Of a DNA stretch of 64,000 nt, positions 11,369 through 61,343 are shown piece by piece. The position numbers and the translations under genes were made by a program. The notes below the pieces were generated by a model, which was not told the DNA's origin, did no database searches, and saw only the letters and a program-made list of their open reading frames with translations. Origin of the DNA: a virus; the IMG/VR virus record IMGVR_UViG_3300043811_000032, positions 34,692-98,691 of that record; one strand, given 5' to 3'. Each line of letters begins with the position of its first letter. Positions within the stretch are counted from its first letter, which is position 1.

Positions 11369-12052
11369 TTACATCCCGCCTGTAGGTTGAAGTTGCTTGG
11401 CGCCAAAGTCGATAAAGCGACCAGCACCCATGTGCGGCCAGCCGAGTTCGTAGCGGTAGCGCACGCTAGTCAGTCTTCTGCTGCCGTACATCGCCTCGAT
11501 GCCGGGGTCAGAAGACCTGGTCTTACCCCATACCTCCGCCGTCGGCGTGTTCACGCACTTGCCGTTATCCTCGACCACGTAGGTGATCGGCAGATCGTGG
11601 TTGGCGGCATAACGGGTGCACTCGGCGAACGCTCCCATCTCCGCGGCCATGTCGCCGACGAAACACCAAACGTGTCCTAGCTTGTAGACTCCGTCATTAT
11701 CTCGGCTCAGCAACTTCTCGTGTTTGATCGACCACGCCACACCTAGTGCGATGGGCAGGTTGCCGCCGCAGATGGCACTGCTGTAGAACCGCCGCTCGGG
11801 CACGCAGATCGTGATGGACTCGCCCTTGAGGATCTTCGCCATCAGCTCGTCGCGGGGGATGCCGTGGAGTAACGCATGGTAGTGACTTCTCCACGTTGAA
11901 AATACGTAGTCATGCGGCTTGACTCGCTTGAAGACCTCGATGAGCTGATCTTCGTTGCCAGCGCTCAGGTGCACTGGTGCGCGGATCTTACCGGCGTTGT
12001 AGGCCGTGGCGACCTCTTGCTCGAAGTCGATCAGTTCCTGCTTGGTGACCAC
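11369..12052 (-). CDS. TPP-dependent E1 alpha-like subunit (short)
   Basis: HLSAGNE, STWRSHYHAL, VGDMAAEMG...VEDN TPP-binding motif. Confidence 0.85.
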   Translation of the reverse strand: MVTKQELIDFEQEVATAYNAGKIRAPVHLSAGNEDQLIEVFKRVKPHDYVFSTWRSHYHALLHGIPRDELMAKILKGESITICVPERRFYSSAICGGNLPIALGVAWSIKHEKLLSRDNDGVYKLGHVWCFVGDMAAEMGAFAECTRYAANHDLPITYVVEDNGKCVNTPTAEVWGKTRSSDPGIEAMYGSRRLTSVRYRYELGWPHMGAGRFIDFGAKQLQPTGGM

Positions 12053-12057
12053 TGGTG

Positions 12058-12429
12058 CTAGTCCTCTTCGGGGATGCTGCGAAGCCTCGACATATCCATC
12101 ACGGGCACTGGTGCATGGGGCACAGCCAAGTCTGCTCGCTTGCGGGCTTCCCGTTCCCGCGTCTCGCGAGTCAACCGCTCCTCCGCCAGCTCCTGCAACA
12201 ACTCAGGGGGACCCGACAGCGTGCCGGTGTCGTCGAACTCCGCCACCCGGTCACCGATCTGCACCGAAATACTGCTGGTACCGCCGACGTGAATGCCTTG
12301 GCTACGACGGTCGAGTGGACGTGCCTGGCAAGCCATAATACCTTGCAGCAAGTCGCACTCCAAACCGGCGAACGCCTCGTTGAAGCCCTTGATGAAGTTG
12401 CGGACCCAACGCTCGGTAATCTGGCTCAT
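12058..12429 (-). CDS. Hypothetical protein
   Basis: GGAGG RBS, ATGA overlap. Confidence 0.55.
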   Translation of the reverse strand: MSQITERWVRNFIKGFNEAFAGLECDLLQGIMACQARPLDRRSQGIHVGGTSSISVQIGDRVAEFDDTGTLSGPPELLQELAEERLTRETREREARKRADLAVPHAPVPVMDMSRLRSIPEED

Positions 12430-45124: not shown

Positions 45125-45871
45125 ATGCGTCGCAAGGGGTTCACTCTGATCGAGCTGCTGGTGGTGATTGCCATCATTGGCGTGCTGGTTGCCATGTTGA
45201 TGGTAGCCGTGCAGAAGGCGAGGGAGGCAGCGAATCGCATCAGCTGCGTCAACAATCTGAAGCAGATCGGTCTGGCCTGCCACGTCTACCACGACGCGGT
45301 GCTGACCATGCCGACGGAGCAACCGACTACGGGCACCGCGACATCGCTGTACACGACCTTGTTGCCTAATATTGAGCAGCAGAATCTGTACAACCAGATC
45401 GTCGGAGGCAGCGGCACTCCGGTCGGGCTGAAGATTTACACGTGCCCGAGCCGACGCACTCCCACCCAACCCTTCCGGGACTATGTCTACTACAACCCGA
45501 CCGGCTTGGGGCAATCGAGCGTCTTCGGTGCCAAGGGCGGCGTGTCGCTGGGCATCCTGACGAACGCTAACGGAGCGAGCAACACGGCCCTGCTGGCCCA
45601 CGTGTTCTTAGCACCGTCTTCCTATGGTCAACTGGACCCGAGCGGCGGGGGCTGGAACACTATGAACAACACAGCGTCCTCGGCCACGCAACAGCAGGAT
45701 AGTAACTCAAGCGGGTCAGCGGGTCTTGGCGGGCCACACCCCAACACCGATCCGATGCTTTTCGCGGACGGCCACGCGCAGAACATCGCCTTCCAGTGGT
45801 GCACCGCCAACCCGAACCCGGCACAGTATATGTGGAACTACCTCAACACCAACCCCTACGCGCTGCCATGA
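45125..45871 (+). CDS. DUF1559 prepilin-type N-terminal cleavage/methylation protein (H-X9-DG)
   Basis: RKG|[13 protein letters not shown]...[24 protein letters not shown]; CPSR; [12 protein letters not shown]. Confidence 0.95.
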
Positions 45872-52194: not shown

Positions 52195-53031
52195 TTAGAT
52201 GCACCCCTTCAGTTGAAAGTAACTCTCGTCTCGTTCCTGTCCCCACGCTGTTGCCGACTGCCAGCATCCCACACCCCAGTGGTTCGTCGCCACCTTCTTC
52301 GTACCGCCCACCCGCACTCCGTGCCTGGCACACCACAGCCCAAAGTTCCAGTCCTCGGGCACGGTCAACGGCACGATGTCGCCGGGGATGTCGTCGGGCA
52401 GCAGACAATCAACTCGGTTCTTCTCGTCAAACTCTGCTAGTATGTGTCGCCCGTCTTCGGTACGGATTGCCAACCGGTCCACCTGTGAGAAGCCTGGAAA
52501 CGTTCGCCACCGCATGTCCCAGCGTAGCGCCATGCAACCGGTGTTGGGGAGAAGGCAAGGATTTCCACAGTGACCGCCGAAAGCTGTGAGCGCGTCTTGT
52601 GCCTCGAACGTGTCCGGCAGTCCTTGCATCTCCTTGGTCGTTATCTTCCGCACCCACTGATGCTGAACGTCTGCATCGCCGATAGCCGTGCTCGTGTGGC
52701 CCTTCTCATCTTTGATCGCCGTAACCGCGTGCATCACGTCGTAGCCGGAATCCAGCTCGTCGAGGAGTACATCGAGCCAGCTGCCCGTCTGAACCGTCGG
52801 CTGCACGTCCGCGTGGAGCATGCAGAAGTAGTCGAACTTCCCCGGCTGGTTGATCCACTGCGACCAGCAACAGTTGAAGTTGTACGCCAAGCAGCCGCTG
52901 GCCAGGTCGTACTCGAAGACGTCAGTGCGGTTGCTGGGTGCCAGCACCAGCGCCGCCTTGATCGTCTCGTGGCGAATCCCTGAATGGTTCGGGATCGCTA
53001 GGAAGCAGACTCTTTTCTTTGTATCGTTCAT
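52195..53031 (-). CDS. GT-A glycosyltransferase-like protein, virion-module paralog 2
   Basis: DYFCMLHADV, IKD.KG.TSTAIG, LPNTGC, FPGF, VPEDWNFG. Confidence 0.72.
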   Translation of the reverse strand: MNDTKKRVCFLAIPNHSGIRHETIKAALVLAPSNRTDVFEYDLASGCLAYNFNCCWSQWINQPGKFDYFCMLHADVQPTVQTGSWLDVLLDELDSGYDVMHAVTAIKDEKGHTSTAIGDADVQHQWVRKITTKEMQGLPDTFEAQDALTAFGGHCGNPCLLPNTGCMALRWDMRWRTFPGFSQVDRLAIRTEDGRHILAEFDEKNRVDCLLPDDIPGDIVPLTVPEDWNFGLWCARHGVRVGGTKKVATNHWGVGCWQSATAWGQERDESYFQLKGCI

Positions 53032-54074: not shown

Positions 54075-54569
54075 TTACGTGATGGCCGGTATCTTCTGGT
54101 TGCCGGACGGGTCGGTATACGGACCCTGACTCCAGCAATCTGCTTCGAAGTTGACTGTGCCCCGCGCCGTGCTGCTGACCTTGGCGGACGAGCAGCCCCA
54201 GAATGGGAATATGTAGAACGACTTCACGGCGTCGAGCTGACTGGTGTAGACCGTAGTAGCGTCGTTGTTCGTGCCGCCGTCGTCGCGAGGGAACAGGCCC
54301 GGCGGATCGTTGGCGTACGGATTATTAGCGGCGTCCCATACGCCCTTGAGGCTGTACTCCGCCTCGCGGATGCCGGAGATGGCCTCGCCGTAGCTGTTGT
54401 CCTCGAAGTTGGTCGTGTCGAGCTTCTCGCCCTTGTCGGTGACAGTGTACTCATTCTGAAAGAGCTTGTTGCCGCCGATCTGCACGCGGCTGGTGCGCCC
54501 TGCGCGAAACGTGCCGGTGATGACACCAAGGCAGCCACACCAGAGCAGCAGCGATAGCAAAGTGGTCAT
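54075..54569 (-). CDS. Major tail (tube) protein with hydrophobic N-terminal leader
   Basis: LDTTNFED..YGE.ISGIREA..S..G.WD; AAGGAG RBS. Confidence 0.7.
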   Translation of the reverse strand: MTTLLSLLLWCGCLGVITGTFRAGRTSRVQIGGNKLFQNEYTVTDKGEKLDTTNFEDNSYGEAISGIREAEYSLKGVWDAANNPYANDPPGLFPRDDGGTNNDATTVYTSQLDAVKSFYIFPFWGCSSAKVSSTARGTVNFEADCWSQGPYTDPSGNQKIPAIT

Positions 54570-54577
54570 GGTACTCC

Positions 54578-55072
54578 TTAGGCGTGCTGGACGCCGGTTG
54601 CTTGGATGCCACCGCTGGTGTTCTGGAGCTGAGTAGCGCTGATAGCCACGCCCAGCACGGTGACGTAGAGCCCGGTGGCGAGGTCGCTGACCGGTGCGAT
54701 GTTGCCGGCATTGGCCGAGATGACGTAGGTCTGACCCACGACCATAGCCGTGTTGCCGGTGAAGATCGTGCCGGACTTCCAACCTTGGAACGGTTGGCCA
54801 CCGCCGGGGCAACTGCTCAACGCGACGCAGGCTCCGGTCGTGCCGCTGTTCTGCTGGACACTGTTGCTCTGGGCTGGTGCCCATAGTCCGGTAGTGCTAC
54901 TCTGGTAGAGTGTCTGCCCGGCGGTGAAGGCTTGTGCCGACGTGCCACTGATGTACTGATTGCCACTGATGAGTCCGTTGACATTCGCCGCGTTGATGGT
55001 CAGGTCAGCCCGTAGCCAACTGAGCAGCCACAGGACCGCCGCTGCACCGAGCAGCAGTAGAATCACGGTCAT
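54578..55072 (-). CDS. Decoration/cement-like structural protein with hydrophobic N-terminal leader
   Basis: ADLTINAANV...TAGQTLY...GQTYVISANAGNIAP..DL..G; GGAGG RBS. Confidence 0.65.
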   Translation of the reverse strand: MTVILLLLGAAAVLWLLSWLRADLTINAANVNGLISGNQYISGTSAQAFTAGQTLYQSSTTGLWAPAQSNSVQQNSGTTGACVALSSCPGGGQPFQGWKSGTIFTGNTAMVVGQTYVISANAGNIAPVSDLATGLYVTVLGVAISATQLQNTSGGIQATGVQHA

Positions 55073-55085
55073 TTCTCTATTCCTC

Positions 55086-55628
55086 CTATGGGGTGTTGAT
55101 TTGGTAGCCGACGCCCGCCGTGTACTTCGCCATGCCGACCCACACGCGCCCGCCGGTCGGATCGCGGATCTCCTCCTTGAGAATCTCGTAGCTCTCCCGC
55201 TGCCAATGGTGCATGTAAAACGTGCCCACGTCGCCATTGAGCCGGTCACACTGGATACTAAACGAGTCAAGATAAGCGATGATGCTGTTCTTCTTGAGCT
55301 GGTACGGACTGGTGACGAGCCCCACCATCGGCGGTGCGAACGGACTGTTCACGCTGCCACAGTAGACCTTGACCGTGACCTCGTAGACCTCGATGTCGCT
55401 GCCCTCGAAGTTGGGCTCGATCTTTGACTCAGCTACGTCGAATAGGACGTAGGGAAACACGGGTCCGCCCGAGTTAGGCGCTCCCGGCACCGGCTCGGGG
55501 ATCTCTCGATACCACGGGCTACCTGGTTGGGGCTGCGTGGGCGACGCCGAACCCCACTGGATCAGGCCGGCACCGCTGCCGCTGTTCTGCATCAAGACTA
55601 CCAGTCGGGCGTGCAGGGTGTCGATCAC
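55086..55628 (-). CDS. Tail terminator/completion protein
   Basis: Position; FPYVLF...VTVKVY. Confidence 0.5.
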   Translation of the reverse strand: MIDTLHARLVVLMQNSGSGAGLIQWGSASPTQPQPGSPWYREIPEPVPGAPNSGGPVFPYVLFDVAESKIEPNFEGSDIEVYEVTVKVYCGSVNSPFAPPMVGLVTSPYQLKKNSIIAYLDSFSIQCDRLNGDVGTFYMHHWQRESYEILKEEIRDPTGGRVWVGMAKYTAGVGYQINTP

Positions 55629-55930
55629 TTGAGCTTGATCCCCAGCTTCTTCGCGGCGATCTGTAGAGCAGGTCGAGCCTTCATGTTCTTGGTGCCGTAG
55701 ATCAAAAACTTACTGTGGGCAGCGTAGAACCGTACCAACGCACCATTGACCGTGCGGATCACGTGGACGCCACTGACGAACCGGCCACTGCGCCTGTGTG
55801 GAGGTCTGCCCGGTCTGCTGGCCGGTGGGTACGGCTCGCTGGAGATGCTCTTGATCTCCTTGGCGAGCTTGTCGGCCATCGTCACGCCACGCTTGCGGAC
55901 GTACTTCTCGAAGAACTGGTTCAGGTTCAC
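55625..55930 (-). CDS. HK97 gp10-like neck protein
   Basis: SRPGRPP..RSG, LIYGTKNMKARP. Confidence 0.75.
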   Translation of the reverse strand: MNLNQFFEKYVRKRGVTMADKLAKEIKSISSEPYPPASRPGRPPHRRSGRFVSGVHVIRTVNGALVRFYAAHSKFLIYGTKNMKARPALQIAAKKLGIKLK

Positions 55931-56592
55931 GCGCTTACCTCGTTCGACTTGGCTGTCCCATACTGGTTCTGAGCGTATACCACGTAGAAGTTCGGGCCGG
56001 GCAATGGTGCCACGATGTCGTTGTAAGTTCCAACCCCAGCTCCCACCGTTGCTAGGTACGCCTCAGCCCCGCTAGCCGTACCACGCCAAACGTTGTACCA
56101 AGCAACTCCAAACCGAGTGCCCCAAGTCAACGTCACGTTCGGGGTAGCACCGGACACGACCACTGACGGTGGGGATGGGGCGGACCCGAGTGGAGGCAGC
56201 AGCGGCTTGGAAGGCAACTGGTCAGTGAACGTGCTCGGGATGACCTGGCTCGTGTCCTCCTGCACTGGGTAGGCCCAGAACGTGCTGAGTCCACCGTCGC
56301 TATAGCTCTTGTTGCGTGGACCTATGACGCGGAACAACCGGTTGTCCTGATCGTTGAACAGGAACATGCCGTTGTCGATGTCGCCGTCGTAGGTGTAGCA
56401 GGCATACTCGCCGGAGATGCCCTGTGTGCCCCATGCCGCTTCCTGCTTGAACGACGGACGCGACAACCGAGCGGCAATCCAGCGCACGCCGGTCAGGTTG
56501 TGGACAGCCATGCCCATCGCATCAGCTTGGTACTGGAATTTCTGCGTCATCACGCAGAGCAGCGGTTGGGTGTCAGCATCGAGTAGCGGCAT
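55927..56592 (-). CDS. Head closure protein with C-terminal FN3/Ig-like domain
   Basis: VTLTW...YNVWRGTASGAE...TYND...YVVYAQN.YG...SNEVSA. Confidence 0.6.
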   Translation of the reverse strand: MPLLDADTQPLLCVMTQKFQYQADAMGMAVHNLTGVRWIAARLSRPSFKQEAAWGTQGISGEYACYTYDGDIDNGMFLFNDQDNRLFRVIGPRNKSYSDGGLSTFWAYPVQEDTSQVIPSTFTDQLPSKPLLPPLGSAPSPPSVVVSGATPNVTLTWGTRFGVAWYNVWRGTASGAEAYLATVGAGVGTYNDIVAPLPGPNFYVVYAQNQYGTAKSNEVSA

Positions 56593-57530
56593 CAGAGTGC
56601 AATCCCTACTGCCAGATCACGGTAGCCGGCTAGCAGCTCGCGGATGCCTCCCCACTGGCGCTCGCGGAAGTTGAGCCCATACCCGTAGTCGCCCAAGTTC
56701 TCGTTCCCCACCTGCCCGCCGTAGGGCACCATCGTCCGCATCATGCCGCACGCCTCAGCGATGGCCAACTTGACGTCGTAGGGGATGCAATCGAACGTGC
56801 CGCCGGTGCTCGGGCCGTAGTTGGTCGCACTGTTGAACGTGATCGACTGGTTGTTGCTGCCGACGCTCACCACTGCCCAGTCGCCATTCCAGCCCACCGC
56901 GTCGTTCGTGATGGCGAAGGGCTCGGCCGGGAACACCACCACCGTACCGGGGAACGTCATCGTAGCCACGCCGTTAGCCCACGTGATGCTGCTGTAGAGC
57001 GTGGGGGGTTGGAAGCCGTAGTCGTACTGGACCTTGACGTTCCCGGCGCCGGCTGGCCACACCGGACCCTTGCTGTAGCTCAGTCCCTGGTTGCTAGACG
57101 GCGACATCCACTGGCTCGGCCATAGGAACAGGTTGTCCCTCATCCGTCGCAGGATGGCGCTCTTGCACAGCCCCGTCTGCTCCCACACCATCGAGTAGTC
57201 CACGCCGTTGGTCAGGAGCGTCTGCGGTCCGAACGGAGTGTAGTTGCTGTTGTTCTGCCCATAGGCGGCGAGCGGATCCCACCAGACGTTGATGACGTTG
57301 GTGATCCAGTTCTTCCGCAGGACGATGTCGCCGTAGTTCTTGCCGTCATAGTACTCAAAGAAGTTGCCCTGACCGAACCCCTCATTGGCAGTCAGGCCCC
57401 ACTTGAGCCAGCGCACCACCGCCCGCTCGACGAAGCTGCGCAGACGATCTATCTGCTGGTAAAGGGCACTACCGGGCTGGGCATTGCTCTTCATCGCAAT
57501 CAGGACATCTTGGGTCGTCATAAGACTCAT
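56592..57530 (-). CDS. Head-tail adaptor (gp6/gp15-like) with inserted beta domain
   Basis: EYYDG, GNVKVQYDYGF...IPYDVKLA, ENLGDYGY, ELLAGYR. Confidence 0.7.
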   Translation of the reverse strand: MSLMTTQDVLIAMKSNAQPGSALYQQIDRLRSFVERAVVRWLKWGLTANEGFGQGNFFEYYDGKNYGDIVLRKNWITNVINVWWDPLAAYGQNNSNYTPFGPQTLLTNGVDYSMVWEQTGLCKSAILRRMRDNLFLWPSQWMSPSSNQGLSYSKGPVWPAGAGNVKVQYDYGFQPPTLYSSITWANGVATMTFPGTVVVFPAEPFAITNDAVGWNGDWAVVSVGSNNQSITFNSATNYGPSTGGTFDCIPYDVKLAIAEACGMMRTMVPYGGQVGNENLGDYGYGLNFRERQWGGIRELLAGYRDLAVGIAL

Positions 57531-58774
57531 AGCAACTTCCCGTTCTCGATTCGACCACACCAGCCGCAGCCGCCCTCGATGGCGATGGCCGGCGACAGCG
57601 TCAGGTCCTCGATCCCCGTTCCCCTCGGCTCCCAGCAGCCCGGTCGTACCTTGCCGTGGAGCCCGCCCACCCACTGGCCGTTCTGCCCCGGAATGAACCA
57701 GCAGATGATCGGATGCCGCAGGTCCCCCTTACACTTGGGGCAGTCGAACATCACACCTTCGGCTTTGGTCAGTGACTGATGTCCTTGGATCGCGTTGGCG
57801 GGCAGGCGGGTCACGAACCTGCCGTTAAGCTTGTCCAGCGGCAGTGGCTCCTGCCCGATGATGTCCCTCGACCCCGCCCAACCGTGGTCGAACTTCTCGC
57901 CGCCCCACGCGCTATCGTTGCCGAACTTCTGTACTCCGTAGTGGTAAGTACGAACCTTGCTGGTGGCACCGACCCGCAGTCCCATCCGCGCCATCCAGCG
58001 GCCGAAGTTCCAGTCCTCGGGTACGCAGCTGCACTTCCGCGGCGTCTTCGCCTTGCTCAGCTCCGTGTGGTCGGGGTAGTGCGGCTTCTCCATAAACATC
58101 GGCCGCGGCGGTAGCCACCGGTCGTCGTGCCACTCGTAGAACTGGTCGCGGATCTCGAAGCCGGGAAACTCCCAGCACCAGTCCGCCATCTTGATCAGCA
58201 GGCACCCCGTGTTCGGCAGCAGGCACAGGTCGCACTGCCACCTCGGCTCGGGATGGGCCAGCAGCTTCTCGAAGCAGTTGCCTTGCTTCCACTCCAGGAA
58301 CTGCAGGCACTCCTCGACGCCGAACGTAAGCGGCAGCTGGTCCACCTCGGTCATCGTTAGCTTCCGCGCCTCGGTCCAGCGGTTGGATATCTGACCGACC
58401 GCCGTGCTGGTCATGCCACGATTGTCCTTGATCGCCACCACGCAACCCAACGCCGCGTACTTGTGTAACTCCAGCTCCTCGACCATCAGGTGCATGAAAT
58501 TGTCATTCGGCTCAACGTCGCTGGCGATCAGCAGGAAGTAGTCGTAAGGCCCTCCGTTCGCCTCGTTCGGGTCGGCCGTCGCATTGACGAACCCCTGCCA
58601 GCCGAGGTTGAAGCTATTCGCCAGCAGCGACTGCCCGGTGCGGTGGTCGAAGTTGATGAAGTAGTCGGCCCAGTGCTCAGCGTCAGCTCGCTTGTACTGG
58701 ACCGCTGTCAGCATGTTATCATTGTGATGCGTGTACGCGGGCGAGTGGACGTAGATGCGCTTCTGCTTCTTCAT
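57527..58774 (-). CDS. GT-A glycosyltransferase-like protein, virion-module paralog 1, with C-terminal DUF6527-like Zn domain
   Basis: YDYFLLIASDV, IKD.RG.TSTAVG, LPNTGC, VPEDWNFG; FDCPKC...LTLSPAI...CGWCG.I.NG. Confidence 0.72.
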   Translation of the reverse strand: MKKQKRIYVHSPAYTHHNDNMLTAVQYKRADAEHWADYFINFDHRTGQSLLANSFNLGWQGFVNATADPNEANGGPYDYFLLIASDVEPNDNFMHLMVEELELHKYAALGCVVAIKDNRGMTSTAVGQISNRWTEARKLTMTEVDQLPLTFGVEECLQFLEWKQGNCFEKLLAHPEPRWQCDLCLLPNTGCLLIKMADWCWEFPGFEIRDQFYEWHDDRWLPPRPMFMEKPHYPDHTELSKAKTPRKCSCVPEDWNFGRWMARMGLRVGATSKVRTYHYGVQKFGNDSAWGGEKFDHGWAGSRDIIGQEPLPLDKLNGRFVTRLPANAIQGHQSLTKAEGVMFDCPKCKGDLRHPIICWFIPGQNGQWVGGLHGKVRPGCWEPRGTGIEDLTLSPAIAIEGGCGWCGRIENGKLL

Positions 58775-59118
58775 CGATGCTCTCCTATGGTGATGGTTTC
58801 GACTGGATAGAGTGGACCGAGACCGGCCCGACCTCTTGCCCACTGACAGCCAGTCTGCCCCGGCTCGTAGTCGGCACAGCACTTGGGCTTGTCCATCTGG
58901 ATGCTGCACTGTCCGAACTCGGTCAGCAATCTGCAGGCTCCACTGCCGTCTATCCCGTTCTCATGACCGTTCGGGTACAGATAATTGTCTTCAACTTCGT
59001 TCGGCAGCAGGATCAGGCTCAGTCGTCGCTTGTCCTCCTCGTTCAGGTTGACCCAGTAACCGGCACAGCAGCACGCACCGCACTGGTCGCATTCGTAGAC
59101 GTAGCGTTTGGTCGCCAT
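58771..59118 (-). CDS. YkgJ/FliB-like CxxCxxCC Fe-S cluster protein
   Basis: CDQCGACC...C.LL...CSI..KP.CC.DY. Confidence 0.85.
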   Translation of the reverse strand: MATKRYVYECDQCGACCCAGYWVNLNEEDKRRLSLILLPNEVEDNYLYPNGHENGIDGSGACRLLTEFGQCSIQMDKPKCCADYEPGQTGCQWARGRAGLGPLYPVETITIGEHR

Positions 59119-59945: not shown

Positions 59946-61343
59946 TTACTTGAGGATGACCATCGGGCTGACCTGCCAGCTCTGGTCCGCCAAGGTGATC
60001 GGGGCGTCCTGCCACGGCGTGCCGTCCCAGCGGACGATGACGCGCCACATCATCTGGTTCTGGGTGAACCGAACGTGCGGCGACACCTCGATCTGGATGG
60101 CGAGTCGATCGCCTAGCAGATACTTGCTGTAGTCGGCCAGCACCAGGTCGCCCTGTTGCCCGAGGAACGACGCTTTCTCCGACCAGAAGATCGGCAAGCC
60201 GGTGAGGATGGCCGGGAACTTCTGAGCCAGAGGGCCTTCGTTGCTCTGCTGGTTCGGCGTCGGATTCAACCACGCGAAGAAGTTGCCGCCGGTGCCGGTG
60301 GTCAGCGTCGCGATGGTCGGGATGGTCGACGGGTTGGCGATCCAGCAGGCGTTGTCCCAGCTCTGGGTGTACAGGTGAGCGAGCATCGTGATGATGTCCG
60401 TCACCGTGATCGAGCCGTTGTTCTGCCGCGGGTAGATGTACGAACCCGGAGCGTTGATGACGCCCTGTGGCTCGTTCGCCAGCTTGCCCTGCAGGATGTA
60501 ATAGTCGTAGCTCCAGGCGACCGCTTCCTGGAACAGCGTGGTGAGCAGCGTGTCGAGCGCCACAGCGTTGTCCTGTAGCAACTGGTTGCTCGCCACCGTG
60601 ACGAACGTCAGGTCGCGGGCCACGAGCTCCACTTCGCGGAACACCGGGTCGGACTCGTTGAGCACGACTTGCTCAGGAGTCCAGCTCATCACGATGCCGC
60701 CGAAGAACTGCGACTGACCGCGTGCGAACACGGTCGAGGACTGCTTCAGCGCCGGCACCAGCAGCGAGCGGGACTGCATGGGCAGGACGGTGCAGCGGTC
60801 CCGAACGAACGCCTTCTCGGCCATCAGCCGGAGCAGGTCGGCGTAGAACTGCGTCGGCACGGTGTAGCCACCGCTGAAGCCGGCGCCTTCCGCCAGACTC
60901 GCCTTCTGTTTGCCCCATGCCTTGTCTACGGGGAGAAACTCGGACTTCGGCCCGTACTGTGGCTTCATCAGCCATTCGCGCGGATCGCCATCTTTGCCTC
61001 GGTCCCACTGATGGCCGAACAGGCCCTTGGTTCGTTCATCGGCGGCCACCATCGCCCGCCAGCTCTTGTCAAGCCGGCTTCGACGACGACCGCTTCGCCC
61101 GGTGTCCAGGCTGGGCATGTCTAGCACGCCCAGAGTGTCGGCGCCGTCCACGCCGACGATGACATTGCGATTGCCTCGGCCGTCGCCGAAGACCTTCTCG
61201 ACGACGCCACCAGGCAGGAACTGCCCAGGACGCGTCTCCCCTCGCGGGTTCGAGATGACACCTTCCATCTTCGTGACACGGCTGACCATGTCGGAGATGG
61301 AGTTCGCCATCTGGCTCAGCAGAGCCTTTTCCTTCGTTTCCAA
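59946..61343 (-). CDS. Major capsid protein (HK97 fold)
   Basis: KASLAEG..SGGYTVP, SNQLLQD, EPQGVINA, GDLVLADYSKY, R.DG.P; GGAGGAG RBS. Confidence 0.95.
   Translation of the reverse strand: METKEKALLSQMANSISDMVSRVTKMEGVISNPRGETRPGQFLPGGVVEKVFGDGRGNRNVIVGVDGADTLGVLDMPSLDTGRSGRRRSRLDKSWRAMVAADERTKGLFGHQWDRGKDGDPREWLMKPQYGPKSEFLPVDKAWGKQKASLAEGAGFSGGYTVPTQFYADLLRLMAEKAFVRDRCTVLPMQSRSLLVPALKQSSTVFARGQSQFFGGIVMSWTPEQVVLNESDPVFREVELVARDLTFVTVASNQLLQDNAVALDTLLTTLFQEAVAWSYDYYILQGKLANEPQGVINAPGSYIYPRQNNGSITVTDIITMLAHLYTQSWDNACWIANPSTIPTIATLTTGTGGNFFAWLNPTPNQQSNEGPLAQKFPAILTGLPIFWSEKASFLGQQGDLVLADYSKYLLGDRLAIQIEVSPHVRFTQNQMMWRVIVRWDGTPWQDAPITLADQSWQVSPMVILK

What the first reader, a model, noticed from the sequence alone, without database searches (positions are those of the whole stretch)
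54075..55072. Two adjacent virion proteins begin with hydrophobic, signal-like leaders
Seen: strong RBSs fix the starts at MTTLLSLLLWCGCLG|VITGT (tail tube) and MTVILLLLGAAAVLWLLSWLR|ADLTINAANV (cement-like protein), and no alternative RBS-backed start precedes the mature-looking domains. From recollection, homologs of the second begin simply MADL. Tube and decoration proteins are normally soluble and leaderless. Inference: cleavable leaders that tether subunits to membranes for assembly or glycosylation, or protease-removed propeptides.
Basis: partly seen in the sequence, partly recalled or inferred. Interest (0 to 1): 0.7.

Follow-up and report, generated by a model that had tools for sequence, protein, structure and literature searches.

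The report
Membrane-type leaders on phage virion proteins
An uncultured 99-kb tailed phage, probably of a planctomycete, makes its capsid-cement protein and its tail-tube protein with extra membrane-spanning-type N-terminal segments that nearly all relatives lack, which suggests that these parts are parked at, or sent across, the cell membrane before assembly, a step I could not find described for tailed phages.

Summary
Both minus-strand genes (54578-55072 and 54075-54569) start at RBS-backed ATGs. No other in-frame start would keep their conserved N-terminal residues. Fold searches show the first is a capsid decoration/cement protein and the second a tail-tube (Hcp-like) protein. In both models the hydrophobic segment lies outside the fold. 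The cement leader is conserved in four relatives down to 52% identity. Most of the wider family (at least 6,537 representatives) starts MADL exactly where the leader ends. About 6% of the 149 best representatives carry textbook Sec signal peptides ending AXA at that same junction. Two of these are in Verrucomicrobiota MAG contigs. The tube leader is far rarer: 2 of 121 family members, identical in both. Neither leader is a classical signal peptide. Both lack a charged n-region and have Arg directly after the helix. The cement junction is W-L-R|ADL. I read them as membrane-anchoring pro-segments, probably leaving the domains cytoplasmic and removed before incorporation. Topology, cleavage and purpose are untested. 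The glycosylation idea found no support. Other agents of this scan noted export signals on cement proteins in other phages; a leader on a tube protein is not among the notes I retrieved. Papers searched describe neither.

The parts
54578..55072 (-). Gene for a capsid cement/decoration-type protein (P0002, 164 aa) with an N-terminal hydrophobic leader
   Evidence: ORF and translation. AF2 model with beta domain 34-161. The fold matches only capsid decoration proteins: HFTV1 8qsy Z 11.4, rmsd 3.2 over 109 residues; Pam3, Adjutor and XM1 Z 9.2-9.4. Relatives hit Pfam Phage_cement_2 weakly.
55010..55072 (-). Leader of P0002, codons 1-21: M-T, an 18-residue uncharged hydrophobic helix, then a conserved Arg directly before ADL
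   Evidence: Predicted helix 2-19. Conserved in P0003, P0004 and P0006, with leader identity 40-75% against domain identity 52-79%. Absent from distant relatives, which start MADL at this junction.
55082..55087 (-). Shine-Dalgarno AGGAGG of P0002, 9 nt before the ATG, overlapping the stop codon of the upstream gene (55086-55628)
   Evidence: Read from the sequence.
54075..54569 (-). Gene for the tail-tube protein (P0001, 164 aa) with an N-terminal hydrophobic leader
   Evidence: ORF and translation. Weak PHROG major-tail-protein hit (phrog_9522, E 1.4e-4). Fold: Hcp and tail-tube chains, Z 6.4-8.3 over residues 24-164. 348 family members found.
54513..54569 (-). Leader of P0001, codons 1-19 (MTTLLSLLLWCGCLGVITG): moderately hydrophobic, rich in Gly/Cys/Ser/Thr, followed by R22, R25 and R28
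   Evidence: Outside the fold and disordered in the model (pLDDT below 50 for residues 1-15). Present in only 2 of 121 family members, P0001 and P0010, and identical 19/19 while the domain is 82% identical.
54574..54579 (-). Shine-Dalgarno AAGGAG of P0001, 4 nt before the ATG, overlapping the TAA of P0002
   Evidence: Read from the sequence.

Best explanation
Both proteins are made with an N-terminal membrane-inserting helix that is not part of the folded domain and is not a classical cleavable Sec signal peptide. The helix parks the newly made cement and tube subunits at the cytoplasmic membrane. The Arg residues directly after each helix, and the lack of charge before it, make an N-out/C-in anchor with the domain left in the cytoplasm the most likely topology. 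The segment is removed or pulled out before the subunit joins the particle, so that the cement protein regains the family's usual N-terminus, ADL. Shown: the starts, the identities of the two proteins, the position of the leaders outside the folds, their conservation, and their rarity among relatives. Inferred: membrane insertion, topology, removal and purpose. The purpose I favour is to hold back or localise abundant self-assembling subunits. The cement leader is the local form of a habit of this cement family, in which several kinds of N-terminal targeting or pro-segments end at exactly the same junction.
For: Starts fixed by RBS and by the lack of other in-frame starts. Cement fold and tube fold, with the leaders outside the aligned ranges. 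Leader predicted as helix 2-19. The cement leader stays hydrophobic, with conserved Gly9, Trp/Tyr15, Ser/Thr18 and Arg21, across 52-78% identical relatives and diverges only slightly faster than the domain. The tube leader is identical 19/19 in a relative whose domain is 82% identical (0.82^19 = 0.02). In the cement family, 9 of 149 representatives, plus loci L015, L027, L032 and L034, carry textbook signal peptides whose AXA site falls exactly before [ATV]D[LIV]. That is the N-terminus the leaderless majority has once Met is removed. So membrane targeting and a regenerated ADL end recur in this family. True signal peptides elsewhere in this genome have K/R n-regions and AXA sites, whereas these two leaders have neither. 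P0005 and P0007 appear to start at GTG directly at VADL (JGI prints V for GTG starts, as checked on L009/P0168). The domain therefore seems to work without a leader.
Against: No membrane insertion, topology or cleavage was or could be tested here; no SignalP or TMHMM-type predictor was on hand. No protease is known for an R|A junction. The positive-inside argument is weak for P0002, where R21 is offset by D23. The Arg residues after the tube leader are conserved in leaderless relatives too, so they were not placed there for topology. Relatives with true signal peptides point to export of the domain, not to a cytoplasmic anchor. A tube or cement subunit tied to the membrane has no described route into a particle. 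The tube leader is only moderately hydrophobic and was modelled as disordered.
Confidence: 0.4

Rival explanations
1. True export: the leaders act as (atypical) Sec signals or type II signal anchors. The cement domain, and here the tube domain too, end up in the periplasm and meet the particle only around lysis, as the relatives with textbook signal peptides imply.
For: Canonical signal peptides at the same junction in about 6% of cement representatives, in phage structural modules (L015, L027) and in Verrucomicrobiota MAG contigs (L032, L034). Signal peptides without K/R in the n-region can still work (general knowledge). C-L-G|V in the tube leader fits the -3/-1 rule.
Against: No n-region charge. 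W-L-R|A breaks the -3/-1 rule, while true signal peptides of the same genome obey it. A tail tube polymerises around the tape measure in the cytoplasm, so export of all tube subunits looks lethal. Only one translation start exists, so no leaderless pool can be made. Signal-peptide-bearing members have no more cysteines than leaderless ones, so nothing points to disulfide maturation.
Confidence: 0.22
2. Propeptides with no membrane role: short N-terminal pro-segments removed by a host or phage protease during assembly, like the Prp-cleaved leaders of staphylococcal phage capsid, scaffold and major tail proteins. Alternatively, segments kept in the virion as hydrophobic arms.
For: Precedent: 80alpha capsid and scaffolding proteins lose 13-14 N-terminal residues to host Prp at F|A, and the same motif is reported on the major tail protein of phi13 (PMC5744158). 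Arg is conserved at -1 in all four cement leaders. A third class of family extensions ends in H-F/Y|ADL.
Against: Eighteen to nineteen uncharged, Leu-rich residues (KD 2.9) make a transmembrane-type segment, not a soluble propeptide. It would aggregate or insert into a membrane. No protease is identified. The Prp leaders are hydrophilic.
Confidence: 0.15
3. The tube leader is a recent, nearly neutral insertion or a swapped 5' gene segment without a function of its own. Only the cement leader is functional.
For: 2 of 121 tube-family members have it. Relatives of equal closeness (P0011 and P0012, 83-87% identical) start MPVTG or MPFSS. The first 30 residues of P0001 and P0010 are identical, which could reflect a recently exchanged block.
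Against: It has persisted unchanged while the rest of the protein diverged by 18%. A hydrophobic tag on the most abundant tail protein is unlikely to be neutral. It sits next to a gene with the same kind of leader.
Confidence: 0.13
4. Annotation artefact: translation starts downstream and the hydrophobic stretches are never made.
For: None beyond the general rarity of such leaders. P0005 and P0007 show that a start directly at the ADL junction is possible in relatives.
Against: No in-frame ATG/GTG/TTG lies between the leader start and the conserved N-terminal residues. Strong RBSs precede the ATGs and none lies further in. Hydrophobic character is conserved in relatives.
Confidence: 0.03

Closest known systems
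Capsid decoration/cement proteins with the fold of HFTV1 (PDB 8qsy), mycobacteriophage Adjutor (8saj), cyanophage Pam3 (8hdt), XM1 (7kmx), TW1 (5wk1), the phi29 gp8.5 base and lambda gpD; Pfam Phage_cement_2 (PF09956). The cultured member of this exact sequence family is Rhizobium phage 16-3 p009.
   Same: Same fold for residues 34-161 (Z 11.4 to 5). Same small size. Gene sits among the head-completion genes, as in 16-3 (between connector p008 and head-closure p010), L015 and L027.
   Different: Carries a 21-residue membrane-type leader before the conserved ADL arm. P0002 itself does not reach any Pfam model. Here the gene lies directly before the tube gene.
Siphophage and GTA tail-tube proteins and T6SS Hcp (R4C 8gtb, RcGTA 6tba, lambda gpV 7t2e, Hcp1 6bdc)
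   Same: Fold over residues 24-164 (Z 6.4-8.3). The conserved FRAG(K/R)xSR N-terminal strand and the LDTTNFE motif are shared with 348 relatives. The gene is syntenic with the tube genes of L007 and L008.
   Different: A 19-residue hydrophobic N-terminal addition, seen in only 2 of 121 relatives. I know of no tube protein described with one.
Prp-cleaved N-terminal leaders of Staphylococcus phage 80alpha capsid and scaffolding proteins (and the phi13 major tail protein)
   Same: Short N-terminal additions on abundant self-assembling virion proteins, among them a major tail protein. They lie outside the fold, are removed by a host protease, and their purpose is still unclear (PMC5744158).
   Different: Those leaders are hydrophilic, share a KLNLQ(H/F)F|A motif and occur in Firmicutes phages. 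The leaders here are uniformly hydrophobic and end in R|A or G|V.
Sec signal peptides, SAR (signal-arrest-release) domains of phage endolysins, and the filamentous-phage procoat
   Same: N-terminal hydrophobic segments that send a phage protein to the inner membrane and hold it there until a later step. The Gly/Cys/Ser/Thr-rich tube leader resembles SAR composition (my own knowledge).
   Different: No positive n-region, no AXA site in the cement leader, and the cargo is a part of a tailed virion that is built in the cytoplasm.
Export-signal-bearing cement proteins noted earlier in this scan in other uncultured phages (e1-5289816, e1-5289809, e1-5359588, e1-5893474, e1-5353533)
   Same: A cement-type protein with an N-terminal targeting segment inside a structural module. 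In my own family search, run before I read those notes, I found the same habit.
   Different: Those cases are mostly textbook Sec signals on podovirus cement and fibres. Here the leader is an uncharged anchor-like helix, the phage has a long tail, and the tube protein carries one too. No membrane glycan-transferase partner was found.

Membership tests
Phage capsid cement/decoration proteins (PF09956-like) | Sequence match to the Pfam model above its cut-off | tested here: not met
   P0002 has no Pfam hit at E<=1. 7 of 13 relatives hit PF09956, best E 0.004, below the 24-bit cut-off.
Phage capsid cement/decoration proteins (PF09956-like) | Fold of solved capsid decoration proteins | tested here: met
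   VIA ranks 1-24 are all capsid decoration proteins: 8qsy Z 11.4, rmsd 3.2, 109 residues aligned; 8saj Z 9.4, rmsd 3.3, 116 aligned. Foldseek probability 1.0. ESM Atlas neighbours are viral, some PF09956.
Phage capsid cement/decoration proteins (PF09956-like) | Gene lies in the head/neck module of a tailed phage | tested here: met
   HK97-type capsid gene at 59946-61343. Synteny with L007 and L008. Same family between the connector and head-closure genes in phage 16-3.
Phage capsid cement/decoration proteins (PF09956-like) | Bound to the outside of the mature capsid | not testable with these tools
   Needs virion proteomics or cryo-EM.
Tail-tube / Hcp family | Sequence match to a major-tail-protein family | tested here: inconclusive
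   phrog_9522, E 1.4e-4, covering only residues 37-82. No Pfam hit.
Tail-tube / Hcp family | Hcp/tube beta-sandwich fold | tested here: met
   The 50 listed entries are almost all Hcp or tail-tube chains, Z 6.4-8.3 over residues 24-164. The model is of middling confidence, pLDDT 66.
Tail-tube / Hcp family | Position after the neck genes and before the tail chaperone and tape-measure genes | tested here: inconclusive
   The order is conserved with L007. The downstream genes hit no family, so chaperone and tape measure are not identified.
Classical Sec (SPase I) signal peptide | Positively charged n-region | tested here: not met
   MT- and MTT- precede the hydrophobic core. True signal peptides of this genome, and of family members, have 1-3 K/R.
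Classical Sec (SPase I) signal peptide | Small uncharged residues at -3 and -1 after a 7-15-residue h-region | tested here: not met
   P0002: W at -3 and R at -1, in all four clade members. P0001: C-L-G|V would fit, so the feature is met only for the tube leader.
Lipoprotein signal (lipobox) | [LVI][ASTVI][GAS]C, Cys at about 15-35, K/R near the N-terminus | tested here: not met
   P0001 has LLWC and WCGC at Cys11 and Cys13: W at -1 or at -3, no K/R, and the Cys lies too early (read; the rule is from my knowledge of PROSITE PS51257). P0002 has no Cys in its leader.
N-terminal signal anchor, N-out/C-in | Uncleaved hydrophobic helix of about 18-20 residues with the positive charge on its C-terminal side | tested here: inconclusive
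   The sequence fits (R21 in P0002; R22, R25 and R28 in P0001). Helix 2-19 is predicted for P0002. Topology cannot be tested here.

The most novel reading that the evidence does not exclude
Tailed phages of PVC-group bacteria (Planctomycetota, Verrucomicrobiota) use a membrane-staged assembly step. Cement subunits, and in this lineage even tail-tube subunits, are first stored in or sent across the cytoplasmic membrane by N-terminal signals. They are released by processing to join the particle late, perhaps only around lysis. This would be a procoat-like logic, so far known only from filamentous phages.
Probability: 0.3. Interest if true: 0.85.

Novelty: new variant of a known kind. Interest (0 to 1): 0.62.

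Why it matters
Textbook assembly of tailed phages is wholly cytoplasmic and uses soluble subunits. A conserved membrane-type leader on a cement protein, a family-wide scatter of real secretion signals at the same junction, and a leader on the tail-tube protein itself would together mean that some phages route major virion parts through or along the membrane. That bears on how assembly is timed and localised, on how phages of bacteria with unusual envelopes mature, and on annotation: such proteins would be misfiled as secreted or membrane proteins. It is directly testable by N-terminal proteomics and topology reporters.

Tried and rejected
I therefore had no DNA for the close relatives P0003-P0013, could not test synonymous against non-synonymous change or indels in the leaders, and have no read evidence.
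2. Origin of the tube leader by duplication of the cement leader: the best local DNA alignment scores 21, about the top 1% of shuffles and of genome windows, and rests mostly on CTG-rich codons. This is not evidence of duplication.
3. Disulfide rationale for export: cysteine counts in the mature domain are the same in signal-peptide-bearing members (mean 1.0) and leaderless members (mean 1.12). Rejected.
5. Maturation-site likeness: the capsid protein's likely processing region (..KQK|ASLAEG..) does not resemble R|ADL.
6. Sequence searches of solved structures with both profiles found nothing below E 0.2.
7. P0001 has no match among 50,697 deposited phage genomes.
8. The genome-contig scan with A1 found nothing, and alignments A3 and A5 were too diverse to scan with.
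9. Six paper searches turned up no description of signal or anchor sequences on cement or tube proteins. The library is incomplete, so this is not proof of absence.

Full report
**What is there**

The window is bases 34692-98691 of a 98,691-bp IMG/VR virus record with direct terminal repeats. The finding covers two adjacent minus-strand genes.

- P0002 (54578-55072) begins MTVILLLLGAAAVLWLLSWLR-ADLTINAANV. AGGAGG lies 9 nt upstream of its ATG.
- P0001 (54075-54569) begins MTTLLSLLLWCGCLGVITG-TFRAGRTSR. AAGGAG lies 4 nt upstream of its ATG.
- Each RBS overlaps the stop codon of the gene before it.
- The only in-frame ATG/GTG/TTG codons are 1, 3, 85, 110 and 112 in P0002, and 1, 4, 29 and 115 in P0001. 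The residues conserved across each family (from A22 and from F21) therefore cannot be made without the leader.
- In a hydropathy and RBS scan of the whole genome, these are the only two genes of the structural module with a hydrophobic N-terminus. Several genes elsewhere have ordinary signal peptides with K/R n-regions and AXA-type ends, for example MKTLLVALLLLMPTFAGAA|H.

**What the proteins are**

Neither protein hits Pfam. P0001 hits a PHROG major-tail-protein family weakly.

- P0002: the AlphaFold model, built on 13 sequences (pLDDT 72), has a helix at residues 2-19, a poorly defined linker, and a beta domain. That domain matches only capsid decoration proteins: HFTV1 Z 11.4 (rmsd 3.2, 109 residues); Pam3, Adjutor and XM1 Z 9.2-9.4; then T1, E217, TW1, the phi29 gp8.5 base, SHP and lambda gpD. 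Relatives hit Pfam Phage_cement_2 weakly.
- P0001: the model (pLDDT 66) has a disordered leader and a beta sandwich. The best matches are almost all Hcp or tail-tube chains, Z 6.4-8.3 over residues 24-164.
- Context: an HK97-type capsid gene lies at 59946-61343. The gene order from capsid to tail is shared with two IMG/VR relatives, L007 (a 91-kb contig) and L008.
- In cultured Rhizobium phage 16-3 the same cement family (p009, MADIVITPASV, leaderless) sits between the connector and head-closure genes.
- A DUF1559/N-methyl pilin-like gene at 45125-45871 points to a planctomycete host. The host assignment is an inference.

**The cement leader in its family**

Close relatives:

- P0003, P0004 and P0006 (78-52% identical) have the same kind of leader. 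It has no charge before the helix and 18 hydrophobic residues. Gly9, Trp/Tyr15, Ser/Thr18 and Arg at -1 are conserved. Leader identity is 40-75%, against 52-79% in the domain.
- P0005 and P0007 appear to start at a GTG directly at VADL.

Wider family:

- A profile search of 1.84 billion representatives found 6,537 family members.
- Of the best 149, 115 start at the motif (MADLT, MADLS and so on).
- Nine have textbook signal peptides (K/R n-region, h-region, AXA) whose predicted cut falls exactly before [ATV]D[LIV].
- About eight have a roughly 40-residue extension ending ..PAHF|ADL.
- More signal-peptide cases lie in phage structural modules (L015; and L027, where the gene overlaps the connector gene by ATGA) and in MAG contigs of Prosthecobacter and Brevifollis.
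- The syntenic relatives L007 and L008 carry yet another, roughly 90-residue, non-hydrophobic extension.

The N-terminus of this family is thus a hot spot for add-ons. All of them stop at the same junction. This suggests that a free ADL end matters and is regenerated.

**The tube leader in its family**

- Of 121 retrieved relatives (348 found), only P0001 and P0010 have a leader. All the others have 2-14 polar residues before FRAG(K/R)xSR.
- The two leaders are identical at 19 of 19 positions, while the domains are 82% identical.
- Equally close relatives (P0011, P0012) start MPVTG or MPFSS.
- P0013, which shares sources and a longest contig of 13,768 bases with the leader-bearing cement P0006 and so probably lies beside it, also lacks a leader.
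- The tube leader is therefore younger than the cement leader.
- I could not show that it arose by copying the cement leader.

**How it most likely works**

- Neither leader looks like a cleavable Sec signal by this genome's own standard.
- The cement helix is long and very hydrophobic (KD 2.9) and ends W-L-R|A.
- The tube helix is weaker and rich in Gly/Cys/Ser/Thr, and is followed by three Arg residues.
- With no charge in front and Arg behind, the positive-inside rule favours an N-out/C-in anchor. That would leave the domains in the cytoplasm, where heads and tails are built.
- I therefore favour membrane-parking pro-segments that are later removed. My confidence is about 0.4.
- True export, as the signal-peptide-bearing relatives suggest, is the main rival. 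It is hard to square with a tail tube, and with the single translation start.
- A protease-only propeptide has a precedent in the Prp-cleaved leaders of 80alpha capsid and scaffolding proteins and of the phi13 major tail protein (PMC5744158). Those leaders are hydrophilic.
The genome encodes no oligosaccharyltransferase-like membrane protein. Signal-peptide-bearing members are not enriched in cysteine. Sugar genes lie near some leader-bearing relatives but not others.

**Standing**

- Earlier notes of this scan report export signals on cement proteins of other uncultured phages. My family search, made before I read them, shows the same habit.
- New here are the uncharged anchor-type form with conserved Arg, a long-tailed phage, and a leader on the tube protein.
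- The papers searched describe none of this.
- Two tools that would have given the DNA of the close relatives or read evidence were unavailable.

Noticed in passing
P0045, P0056, P0068, P0071, P0091, P0119, P0153; L007:5245-5949; L008:3216-3920; L033:4950-5438: A third class of N-terminal extension in the cement family: about 40 residues with a D(D/N)EV...I.AVPAHF motif ending exactly before ADL. L007 and L008 have a related TDDEARFAIVKFMDF inside a roughly 90-residue extension, and L033 ends RREWF|VDV. The aromatic|Ala junction recalls the F|A site cut by host Prp in phage 80alpha. It hits no Pfam family.
   Followed up: partly
L032:4986-5480 (Prosthecobacter MAG) and L034:4941-5429 (Brevifollis MAG): Two of three Verrucomicrobiota loci carry cement genes with textbook signal peptides (..PPCFA|TDL and ..AARA|TDL). 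The Planctomycetaceae, Caulobacterales and Saccharibacteria loci are leaderless. A link with PVC-group hosts is possible but the sample is tiny.
   Followed up: partly
L034:1993-3342 and L032:7255-8814: Near the signal-peptide-bearing cement genes, a 449-aa ORF starts with a TM-like segment (MKLHQALLVAALFAVTALMGVV) and a 519-aa ORF starts with a signal peptide (MRFAFALLTLTLGLCLPALA). I did not identify either.
   Followed up: no
window 54809-54829 (P0002 Cys82 and Cys88): A C-x5-C pair (GACVALSSCPGG) occurs in P0002-P0005 but not in P0006, P0007 or distant relatives. Similarly, Cys125 and Cys144 of the tube protein occur only in the closest clade, with or without the leader.
   Followed up: partly
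window 52195-53031, 57527-58909 (minus strand); L007:1836-2768 and 11603-12373: Two paralogous glycosyltransferase-like genes flank the neck/tube genes. The L007 relative also has two copies, and both window proteins match both copies.
   Followed up: partly
L018:725-1126 and 1209-1562: Two tandem leaderless cement paralogs (MANVTIT.., MANLIVT..) on one metagenome contig.
   Followed up: no
P0050 (261 aa): A cement domain fused in frame behind a 124-residue N-terminal domain, with MADL kept at the junction. It is either a real fusion or a read-through of the upstream gene.
   Followed up: no
genome 15539-24361, i.e. upstream of the window: A cluster of small proteins with true signal peptides followed by Tyr/Gly-rich sequence (..AAHYYGSCGSCYY....GGYGYFANYSYGY..), and of small multi-TM proteins (an 83-aa protein with three hydrophobic segments), perhaps the lysis cassette.
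   Followed up: no
window 55927-56592 (minus strand): A 221-aa protein whose C-terminal part (..SGATPNVTLTWGTRFGVAWYNVWRGTASGAEAYLATVG..) looks like an Fn3/Ig-type display domain. It hits no family.
   Followed up: no
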